A stretch of 63,347 nucleotides of DNA, filler included, from Rhabdomonas costata (lineage: Eukaryota): assembly GCA_019059605.1 (NCBI GenBank). It is 28 parts of 28 records of this genome, joined end to end, with 100 filler letters (N's around TTAATTAATTAA, not from the genome) between each part and the next. Parts side by side here need not be neighbours in the genome. Positions count along the whole stretch, not along the records: positions 43,069 to 45,232 come from JAHMHO010005137.1; 27 more parts are not named here. One strand, 5' to 3'. Shown in pieces: positions 43,069 to 45,180 of the stretch (the first letter of the stretch is position 1; each line of letters begins with the position of its first letter). A program made the translations under genes and the position numbers. The notes beneath the pieces were generated by a model. The model saw only the letters and a list, made by a program, of their open reading frames with translations, was not told the origin of the DNA and did no database searches.

Positions 43069-45180
43069 GGATTGGTCTTCTGTTGTGGCCCGAGGTAGCG
43101 CTTCGACATAGGTGTACCATTCCTTCTTTGACCGAGTTTTGGAAAGCGCATCCAGAGGAAAAGTTCGTATGTGCCTACGTGAATTCGACCCTATCGGTGG
43201 CTGCGTTGTCTGCCCGGTGGCCTAACATGTTTGTGGTGGAATGTGATGCCTGCAGAGATTCTGAAGAGTTCGAGCAGAGTGTCCGGACATCAGCTGATCA
43301 ATTTCAGGAGGTCTGCATAATTGCTGGTGGTTCTGTGGAAAGTCGCGTAATGGTTTCATTTTGCAAGAGAAGACTTCCCGAAATCGTTCAGGGGCAGACG
43401 CGAGTCCTTCTTGTTGTGAATGTTTGTGGACGCCCTCGTGAAGAAAGGGTTGAATTTGTCCCTCAGTGTGTTGATTTGTTTGTGGATGAGTTGGTCGATG
43501 ATGATGATCTCCTTCGAAGTATCGAAAAAATTCACAGCTGGCCTGAGATTTTGTGTTACAACAGTATTCTGCGTGATGCTGTTTACTTTTGTTTGCGGAG
43601 GCTAAAGTACTCTGAAGCCTCGCCGGATTATCCCAGCAAACTGCGCGCCATTATTCTTCTCTGCAGTAAAAGCGAAATGTTCCAAAGGTGGTTTGTGTCG
43701 CATTCCTCCTCTCGCATTGCACAATCGGTCGAATCCCTCCGGGAGACTTGCTTTTCTCTGAACGGTTATGTAGTTCGTCGCCCACCGCTTCGCCAGCGGA
43801 TGCATATGGCGTTGATGGAATGCCTCAGTGAGGGAATGCAAGATGTGCTGGGGACAATTGATCGAAATCATAACTTGGACCTTGTTGTCAGTTGCGGACC
43901 ACAATTGTGGTTGCAGGTTTTTCACGTGTGCCAGAAAGTTTTGGAAGAATCGATGGGGCCAGCTTCCCGAGAAGTCGACTGCTCCTTCAATGTGAAATTC
44001 CCCTTTTCGCCGCTGGTTGTTTCACTCGCTCGCGACCTACTAGCCCGGGCTGAAGTTAACCAGTCTGATTTCTCAAGGTTCCTTCCTCTTCCTGCATTGC
44101 AGTCCCCGCAGGATGTTGCAGGGTTTTGCGGTGACCTCCTATCAGTTTCTGTGCCGCAGTGGAGAGGACCGGAATTTCAAGTCAAAAGAGAACTGTTAAT
44201 CAACTACTTGTCCTCAAGTTTGAAGCCTCCGGTACCTATCAACGTTTTAGTAGCAAATTTTGAGAAGTCCCGTGGCACTTTGGAACGAATAGGGTTTGTT
44301 TTACAAGAAGAAGACACTCAGGCATTCTCGCTCGAAGATGCTGCTGCCAAACTGCTCCGCTCCCTCTCGCCTCCAACGTCCTCACCCTACCATTGGCTGC
44401 GCAGGTTTTACACCGTGCTTCCTCTAATAATGGAGTGTGGTACGGAAGCGGAACGTCAGGTGCTAATTTGGATGAAAATATTTGCAGACGTGCTGCCTGT
44501 AATTTCAGTCCTTGAGGGGTCCTTTGAGCAAAAAGTCTGCGTACAGTCAGAGATATGGAAGAACCTCCCTTTGACAGCTGACTTTGAATCTTTCAGAAAA
44601 GGTTTAATCCCTTTTGAAATTTTCGCTCCCTTCGGTGAAACAGCCACTCTCCTGACAGCCACTTTAGCTCTCAGCAGTTTGACGCACTACTGGAGAACGC
44701 ACTGCAGCCGGGGCCAGCGGACTGCACTGATTGCAGATGTCGTCCGAGGAAGCGTATGTGGAGTTAATGTGGCTTTGGCACCAGCACCGCTTCAGCAGGT
44801 TGTTCTGTGTGAGTTGCTCTCCCATTCATCCTGTGCGGACTTGGATTCCGTGGTCATCGAGGAATCTCTGTTCTTCCGAAGTTGTGCCGCTGCTGCCGCC
44901 GGCTTTTCCCCAGGTGCAATTATTGTGTTTCGCTCCTTTGAGCTCCAGCTATGGACCGAAATGGACGAATTCTTGGAGGGACAAAGGGTTGGAGTGTTAC
45001 CTCCCTGGAACTGTTGGAATGTGAGATACATGACTAGGGAGGAAGGGTCCCTGCATTCGATGCTCCAGCTCGCGATATTGCGTGTGGTTATTGAAGTGAC
45101 AGCTCGTTATGTTGTGGATCCTTCTTATTATTCTTCCTCCGTGACAGGCGTTCCTCAATTCCTGTTGCCCTGGTTGGAGG
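43069..45180 (+). CDS. RNF213/mysterin-like giant AAA+/E3 protein, post-AAA region (intronless fragment, open at both ends)
   Basis: ~700 stop-free codons. Ordered motifs VLLVVNV, LFVDEL, LRQRM..ALME, IDRNHNLDLV, LWLQVF and FNVKFPFS recall RNF213 (IDDL, IDR.GNL.LL, LW..IF, PFSW). The last ~50 nt are a fold-back artefact. Confidence 0.7.

What the first reader, a model, noticed from the sequence alone, without database searches (positions are those of the whole stretch)
43069..45180. RNF213/mysterin-like fragment with no visible RING
Seen: an intronless frame of ~700 codons with RNF213-like motifs in the right order, and no C3HC4 pattern in the ~390 residues after FPFS. Known: animal RNF213 is a giant AAA+ E3 that ubiquitylates bacterial LPS through its RZ finger independently of the RING. 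Inference: a divergent, possibly RING-less homologue suggesting cell-autonomous antibacterial defence in this lineage. The assignment rests on recalled motifs.
Basis: partly seen in the sequence, partly recalled or inferred. Interest (0 to 1): 0.7.

Follow-up and report, generated by a model that had tools for sequence, protein, structure and literature searches.

The report
Divergent RING-less RNF213 gene fragment
This short contig is the middle piece of a very divergent gene related to the giant immune ubiquitin ligase RNF213; it seems to lack the RING finger, which many single-celled eukaryote relatives also lack, and what the protein acts on is unknown.

Summary
The finding is one whole unplaced contig (43069-45232) in a window of concatenated ~2.2-kb contigs. 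It is one open frame of 720 codons, cut at both ends; the last ~18 codons are probably a fold-back artefact. Pfam, PDB-sequence and pairwise searches fail. A profile of 88 RNF213-family proteins built without it matches residues 109-333 at 31 bits (best of 300 shuffles 2.6). It covers the end of AAA6, the hinge and the front of the E3 module. The RING slot lies 287 residues after the PFS motif in human; the fragment has 389 after it and no CxxC, so the RING is probably absent (~80%; the C-terminal alignment is only moderately supported). That is common: 56 of 88 relatives have an empty slot. Three heterolobosean relatives, however, carry a RING-like finger that Pfam misses. The genome holds at least three RNF213-type AAA genes and one RNF213-type RZ finger, all on other contigs and none linked to this one. 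Antibacterial function is extrapolated from mammals. The scan has noted RING-less RNF213 relatives in other genomes before.

The parts
43069..45232 (+). Whole unplaced contig (G000:C5137), one open frame, gene cut at both ends
43071..43520 (+). Residues 1-150: probable end of the degenerate AAA6 module; the part before residue 109 is weakly supported
   Evidence: profile match starts at 109; anchored alignment of 1-136 reached by 14 of 1000 shuffles and 8 of 1000 block shuffles; boundaries inferred and PMC7311170 section 6
43395..44069 (+). Residues 109-333: core of the significant RNF213-family profile match (AAA6 end, hinge, start of E3-back)
   Evidence: 31.2 bits, E 3.6e-12 for one comparison, best of 300 shuffles 2.6 bits
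43521..43856 (+). Residues ~151-262: hinge domain, approximate limits
   Evidence: mapped through onto mouse hinge 3406-3588; pLDDT mostly 70-95 over 161-470
43857..43877 (+). IDRNHNL, the family DRN motif at the start of the E3 module
43998..44009 (+). FPFS motif; P311 and D355 fall on invariant columns
43989..44483 (+). Residues 307-471: E3-back, superposes on human RNF213 3706-3920
   Evidence: Z 10.9, rmsd 4.2, 161 aligned, next row Z 5.6; model built from an RNF213-family alignment, so partly circular
44583..44720 (+). Residues ~505-550: position of the RING slot; no RING or U-box here
   Evidence: position approximate
44721..45176 (+). Residues ~551-702: probable post-RING E3 helices (E3-shell region); moderate support only
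   Evidence: anchored alignment ends at profile column 855, past the slot at ~683-700; local profiles not significant
45110..45231 (.). 54-nt inverted repeat at the contig end; second arm 45178-45231 probably a fold-back artefact

Best explanation
The contig is an internal third-quarter fragment (about human residues 3290-4250) of a 4,500-5,000-residue RNF213-family protein. It holds the end of AAA6, the hinge, the E3-back with an empty RING slot, and probably the start of the post-RING scaffold. SHOWN: family homology of residues 109-333 (~93%). PROBABLE: no RING (~80%). INFERRED: contig C8608 carries the AAA3-AAA5 part of the same gene (~60%), and the protein ends in an RZ finger (~50%). Most likely mechanism, by analogy with mammalian RNF213: ATP binding at AAA3/AAA4 is relayed through the hinge to the E3 scaffold; an E2 passes ubiquitin to the RZ cysteine (Cys/His dyad), which transfers it to a target surface, with no RING needed. 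This fragment is the scaffold and coupling part and has no catalytic site. The target is unknown; invading or engulfed microbes are the best guess (~35%).
For: Profiles built without the query: 15 sequences 26.3 bits against best decoy 3.5 of 445; 88 sequences 31.5 bits against 2.6. The ten best pairwise hits among 120 relatives all fall on the same stretch. Foldseek ranks five RNF213 chains first, prob 0.90-1.00, unrelated rows 0.11 or less; VIA Z 10.9. RING slot: 287 residues after PFS in human (counted), 192-430 in 88 relatives with 1 of 88 above 390; fragment has 389 and no CxxC; a 17-sequence RING-slot profile gives it no hit at domain E 0.05. Anchored alignment of 315-690 scores 21.2, reached by 1 of 1000 shuffles, 0 of 1000 block shuffles and 0 of 40 natural decoys, and prefers an end past the slot (21.2 against -19.2). 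C8608 matches PDB RNF213 at E 1.7e-58, ends about 150 residues before this piece starts, and shares GC3 (0.52 against 0.50) and codon use (r 0.52; other AAA contigs 0.24, 0.21, -0.01). C17912 matches the RZ-CTD region at E 1e-17 and keeps the catalytic Cys and His positions (one search read). RING dispensable and RZ required in mammals: PMC11549300 and PMC12075652, passages.
Against: No direct hit: Pfam, PDB sequences, 1.84 billion representatives give one 143-aa unnamed hit, Atlas gives only helical-repeat families, pairwise best E 0.035. The C-terminal half is not significant by local profiles or by the first semi-global test (7 of 150 shuffles and 20 of 60 natural decoys reach it). The anchored test was designed after that result, and each half alone is reached by 10 and 11 of 500 shuffles. 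The model has pLDDT under 50 beyond residue 475 and its alignment was wrong at both ends. Foldseek E-values are only 6e-3 to 0.13. No DNA overlap links the contigs. One RNF213-type RZ was found for at least three paralogues, and its codon use is closer to C674 (0.64) than to this contig (0.48). C8608 has EE in place of DE at the AAA4 Walker B.
Confidence: 0.6

Rival explanations
1. RNF213-family paralogue that lacks both RING and RZ: an ATP-dependent scaffold or partner of an active paralogue, not a ligase itself.
For: Only one RNF213-type RZ among 4 candidates scored and one CTD contig for at least three AAA paralogues. Several long relatives lack an RZ hit, for example P0096, P0098, P0104, P0105, P0114, P0115, P0123 and L100. 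Very long branches of the genome's AAA pieces, 2.5-2.7 against a median of 0.41.
Against: The assembly has 104,289 contigs and searches score only the best candidates, so missing RZ contigs are expected. Most listed relatives have an RZ.
Confidence: 0.22
2. Ordinary RING-bearing RNF213 relative whose RING lies just past the broken contig end because of a long insertion.
For: C-terminal alignment is weak. 1 of 88 relatives has more than 390 residues between FPFS and the slot. Three heterolobosean relatives have a RING-like finger that Pfam misses.
Against: After residue 471 (human 3920) 231 residues remain, against about 77 to the human RING. Forcing the end before the slot costs 40 score units. 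Post-slot motifs appear in order and at family spacing (by eye).
Confidence: 0.1
3. The gene belongs to a co-sequenced organism or a large virus and not to the main genome.
For: Unplaced short contig; all six RNF213-type contigs are open end to end while other genes of the assembly appear split by introns (L003, L022). A giant-virus MAG contig encodes a 4429-aa relative.
Against: GC 0.494 is within the range of the other 27 contigs of the window, 0.40-0.55. The genome's AAA pieces do not group with the viral row (quick tree, long branches).
Confidence: 0.05
4. Unrelated helical-repeat protein with a chance motif resemblance.
For: No direct database hit; Atlas returns mixed HEAT/TPR families at 0.88-0.93 with low shared-feature counts; wide structure search lists no RNF213 in its top 50.
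Against: Collinear 225-residue profile match 29 bits above the best shuffle. Chains over 3,000 residues were not aligned by that program, so full-length RNF213 is unlikely to have been compared.
Confidence: 0.03

Closest known systems
Mammalian RNF213 / mysterin (PDB 6TAX, 7OIK, 8S24, 9JW1, 9JWG)
   Same: AAA6-hinge-E3-back order, DRN and PFS motifs, E3-back fold 307-471 against human 3706-3920.
   Different: No RING at the slot; too divergent for any pairwise hit; shorter E3 segment; RZ, AAA ring and N-arm not on the contig; no functional data.
Non-animal RNF213-like AAA+/RZ proteins in public databases (Thecamonas trahens P0012, Prorocentrum cordatum P0090, Amorphochlora P0025, Adiantum P0106, unnamed EukProt and metagenome proteins)
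   Same: Profile source of the match; 56 of 88 have an empty RING slot like this one.
   Different: Much more divergent than typical members (anchored score 21 against 59-297 for eight held-out members, similar to 4-29 for three divergent ones).
Heterolobosean RNF213-like proteins (Naegleria gruberi P0065, N. lovaniensis P0118, Willaertia magna P0066)
   Same: P0065 is the best pairwise hit, not significant (E 0.035); same motifs.
   Different: All three carry an eight-cysteine RING-like finger 307-310 residues after FPF; the fragment has none.
ZNFX1 (RZ-finger helicase E3)
   Same: Shares only the RZ finger; the genome's second RZ (C748, L003) looks ZNFX1-type because the frame ends just after it (assignment from recalled architecture).
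   Different: No AAA ring, hinge or E3-back; nothing in the fragment resembles it.

Membership tests
RNF213 family (giant AAA+/E3) | Homology to the RNF213 hinge and E3 scaffold | tested here: met
   Independent profiles; structure, (partly circular)
RNF213 family (giant AAA+/E3) | Dynein-like six-AAA core on the same chain | tested here: inconclusive
   AAA6 end weakly supported in the fragment; AAA3-5 on C8608, C674, C26982, C53629, none linked
RNF213 family (giant AAA+/E3) | Catalytic AAA3 and AAA4 motifs | tested here: inconclusive
   C8608: AAA3 Walker B FFDE intact, AAA4 Walker A GPPGTSKS, Walker B EE instead of DE; AAA3 Walker A is off the contig; same gene not shown
RNF213 family (giant AAA+/E3) | RZ finger with catalytic Cys/His dyad | tested here: inconclusive
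   Present on C17912 with dyad positions kept and Glu at one His zinc-ligand position beside an extra Cys; not linked to this contig
Vertebrate-type RNF213 (RING-bearing) | RING finger inserted in the E3-back | tested here: not met
   No CxxC after residue 311, no Pfam RING or U-box at E 10, no hit with the slot profile; slot coverage about 80-85% sure
Vertebrate-type RNF213 (RING-bearing) | N-arm with CBM20 domain | not tested
   Off the contig; no search of the genome was run for it
Vertebrate-type RNF213 (RING-bearing) | ATP-activated ubiquitylation of LPS or pathogen surfaces | not testable with these tools
   Needs biochemistry

The most novel reading that the evidence does not exclude
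This microbial eukaryote carries an expanded (three or more genes), intron-free, fast-evolving RNF213 family that has lost the RING still present in heterolobosean relatives and works as an RZ-only, ATP-gated ligase that ubiquitylates the surface of engulfed or endosymbiotic bacteria. The RING slot would be a swappable module (empty, RING, U-box) on an ancient eukaryotic anti-microbe machine, and this lineage would be under arms-race selection.
Probability: 0.22. Interest if true: 0.62.

Novelty: new member of a known kind. Interest (0 to 1): 0.3.

Why it matters
If the full protein is an RZ-only ligase acting on microbes, it would extend ATP-gated, non-protein ubiquitylation far outside animals and give a natural test of what the RING adds. 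The fragment alone adds little: comparable full-length RING-less relatives are already in public databases and are better material. The more useful by-product is that the RING position is a swappable slot and that Pfam misses some protist RINGs, so 'RING-less' calls need a slot-level check.

Tried and rejected
Pfam: nothing above cut-off. PDB sequence search of the whole fragment and of residues 111-330: 0 hits at E 10. Representatives search: 1 hit, P0002, an unnamed singleton that does not itself score on the family profile. Atlas: leads only, no RNF213 cluster. Single-sequence model pLDDT 40 and its Foldseek run: meaningless. Two word-index searches and two locus scans with the RZ-contig protein: nothing. 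Pfam AAA_5 in the genome: 23 matches, read by eye as midasin-like, dynein or other AAA, none RNF213-type. A recalled AAA4 motif as a DNA pattern found 0 in the genome because the local copies differ. Profile of all 40 metagenome ORFs was weak (7.5-7.7 bits); the 15-sequence subset was chosen by GC of 0.30 or more after that. Local profiles of the N- and C-terminal thirds failed. Wide VIA search: best Z 6.4, generic helices. MAFFT placed residues 620-700 on the CTD in alignment A1; rejected because it needs hundreds of gap columns and skips the RZ. C674 covers the homologous region with an unrelated-looking sequence, so it is a paralogue, and C26982 and C53629 resemble C674. Raw reads and transcripts were not available, so expression and contig joins stay open. 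The first tree run did not finish; the quick tree leaves the genome's sequences unplaced.

Full report
Observation. The window is 28 unplaced contigs of 2162-2183 bases joined by N runs with a TTAATTAATTAA spacer, so neighbours carry no information. The finding is one whole contig, 43069-45232 (G000:C5137), open in one frame for 720 codons. About 1e-14 is the chance for 702 open codons at this composition. A 54-nt inverted repeat at the end makes residues 703-720 a probable fold-back artefact. No other contig overlaps it.

Direct searches fail. Pfam gives nothing above cut-off, PDB sequences 0 hits at E 10, 1.84 billion representatives one weak unnamed hit, the Atlas only helical-repeat leads. 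A single-sequence model had pLDDT 40 and its fold search was meaningless.

Building an independent reference set. A recalled AAA4 motif, used as a DNA pattern, gave 119 metagenome loci (scan stopped at its limit) and one giant-virus MAG locus. Forty had long enough frames after the motif. One, L046, matches PDB RNF213 at E 1e-250. A search with the AAA core of L047 returned 773 proteins, 120 listed, among them named animal RNF213s, Thecamonas, Naegleria, Willaertia, dinoflagellates and a fern.

Homology. Pairwise, the fragment has no significant hit among the 40 or the 120 (best E 0.035), though the ten best all fall on the same stretch. A profile of all 40 gave 7.5-7.7 bits, first among the targets. 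The 15 with GC of 0.30 or more, chosen afterwards to avoid AT-rich bias, gave 26.3 bits against 3.5 for the best of 445 decoys. A profile of 88 of the 120 (4 dropped for lacking the anchor motif, 28 for no RZ hit or an RZ more than 1800 residues away) aligned residues 109-333 at 31.2 bits, E 3.6e-12 for one comparison, against 2.6 for the best of 300 shuffles. None of these profiles held the query. A profile of 13 sequences that did include it hits only RNF213 chains in the PDB (9 sequences, E 1e-45 to 1e-40) and gives the numbering. With the mouse boundaries of PMC7311170 (section 6 read: AAA to 3405, hinge 3406-3588, E3 from 3589, RING 3940-3999) the fragment runs from the end of AAA6 through the hinge into the E3 module, about human 3290-4250; the two ends are estimates.

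Structure. A model from a 41-row alignment is confident mainly over 161-470; the alignment was wrong at both ends. Foldseek ranks five RNF213 chains first with prob 0.90-1.00 but E only 6e-3 to 0.13. VIA aligns 307-471 to human 3706-3920 at Z 10.9, rmsd 4.2, 161 residues, next row 5.6. This is partly circular because the alignment rows are RNF213 relatives. The wide search showed only generic helices.

Is the RING absent? In human the RING starts 287 residues after PFS (counted); in 88 relatives the slot lies 192-430 after FPFS, median 280, 1 of 88 above 390. The fragment has 389 reliable residues there, no CxxC, no Pfam hit at E 10 and no hit with a profile of 17 slot RINGs. Whether the C-terminal half truly aligns is less sure. 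Local profiles fail and a semi-global test was not significant (7 of 150 shuffles, 20 of 60 natural decoys). An alignment anchored at FPFS, designed after that, scores 21.2, reached by 1 of 1000 shuffles, 0 of 1000 block shuffles and 0 of 40 natural decoys, and ends well past the slot; each half alone is reached by 10 and 11 of 500 shuffles, and forcing an end before the slot costs 40 units. I put RING absence at about 80%.

How unusual is that? Of 88 relatives, 56 have 64 residues or fewer across the slot, 3 have 75-89 and 29 have 102 or more. Read by eye, the 29 are 17 RING-like (11 animal, 6 not named as animal, among them Thecamonas), 7 U-box and 5 other; the regular expressions caught only 12 and 3. 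A lancelet paralogue (P0113) and an EukProt entry labelled Em (P0120) have empty slots, as does the entry labelled Sspe (P0087; I recall this label as a diplonemid, not checked). Against the simple story that non-animal members lack the RING, all three heterolobosean proteins have an eight-cysteine finger 307-310 residues after FPF that scores E 1e-5 to 4e-3 on the slot profile and has no precomputed Pfam RING. The set is biased to relatives of one query, so these counts are not a census.

The rest of the gene. The genome (97 Mb, 104,289 contigs) has two RZ fingers among 4 candidates. C17912 is RNF213-type (E 1e-17 to PDB) and keeps the catalytic Cys and His positions (against the residues given in bioRxiv 10.1101/2025.10.14.682297, passages); C748 looks ZNFX1-type. 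AAA pieces lie on C674, C8608, C26982 and C53629; three cover the same AAA5 stretch, so there are at least three genes. C674 overlaps the fragment's region with a different sequence, and C26982 and C53629 resemble C674. C8608 (E 1.7e-58 to PDB RNF213) ends about 150 residues upstream and shares GC3 and codon use with the fragment, so it is the best candidate partner. The RZ contig is as close or closer to C674. No overlap joins any of them. In a quick tree of 63 rows both AAA pieces sit on branches of 2.5-2.7 changes per column and cannot be placed.

Mechanism. In mammals ATP binding at AAA3/AAA4 activates the ligase and ubiquitin passes through an RZ Cys/His dyad (PMC12075652, passages); RING deletion leaves bacterial ubiquitylation intact while RZ mutants lose it (PMC11549300, passages). 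A RING-less relative with an RZ would therefore keep the working chemistry. The fragment is the hinge and scaffold. That this protein has an RZ is inferred (~50%); that its target is bacterial is a guess (~35%). An RZ-less paralogue is the main rival.

Literature and novelty. Nine searches listed no paper on non-animal RNF213; RNF213 with Naegleria gave 0. The ZNFX1 preprint traces only the ZNFX1 RZ to choanoflagellates. The library lacks most subscription papers, including the original RZ paper, which I did not read, and I opened no supplements; an alignment of protist homologues there could already cover this. Database entries already carry such proteins as RZ-type domain proteins, and this scan has noted RING-less RNF213 relatives in several other genomes, none in this genome and none like this sequence. 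The lineage of the genome was not determined; a receptor-type adenylate cyclase fragment in the window fits Discoba by recalled knowledge only.

Verdict. A real, very divergent new member of the RNF213 family, probably RING-less, incomplete and without functional evidence. Interest 0.3.

Noticed in passing
P0065 3732-3790, P0066 3755-3815, P0118 3737-3800: Naegleria and Willaertia RNF213-like proteins carry an eight-cysteine RING-like finger exactly at the RING slot that Pfam does not report. Pfam-based 'RING-less' calls can be wrong.
   Followed up: partly
P0008, P0018, P0019, P0020, P0022, P0025, P0042 (slot region): Seven RNF213-like proteins, including Amorphochlora, have a U-box in place of the RING; P0034 has a WWE-like insert there. 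The slot behaves as a swappable module.
   Followed up: partly
L006-L011, L014-L016, L018, L019, L020, L023 (G000 C367, C20992, C5960, C3947, C9195, C55892, C51378, C3879, C5507, C10131, C75958, C4883): Many long uninterrupted fragments of tandem midasin-like AAA modules with altered Walker B motifs, suggesting an expanded divergent family beside an apparently intron-split ordinary midasin (L022). Assignment by eye.
   Followed up: no
L147:3064-16350 (-): A giant-virus MAG contig encodes a 4429-aa RNF213-like protein with AAA and RZ; it groups with P0063, labelled 'bacterium'. Viral capture or host DNA in the bin not resolved.
   Followed up: partly
L153, L149, L150, L152, L004 (G000 C674, C8608, C26982, C53629, C17912): At least three RNF213-type genes in this genome, every contig open end to end, on very long branches.
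   Followed up: yes
L003:720-1163 (G000:C748): Second RZ finger at a C-terminus, apparently in an intron-containing gene, probably ZNFX1-like.
   Followed up: partly
window 32303-33910 (-): 535-aa frame with periplasmic-binding-like and adenylate/guanylate cyclase domains: receptor-type adenylate cyclase fragment.
   Followed up: no
window 22703-24850 (-): 715-aa open frame filling almost a whole contig, no Pfam hit at E 1.
   Followed up: no
window 47598-47732 and 49863-50176: Two more contigs begin with fold-back sequence, a sign of chimeric ends in this assembly.
   Followed up: no
L044, L049, L060, L063, L069, L072, L073, L082, L105 and others: Many AT-rich contigs of about 14-15 kb consist almost entirely of one 4,500-5,000-aa RNF213-like frame, as gene-sized chromosomes would; family looks expanded there.
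   Followed up: no
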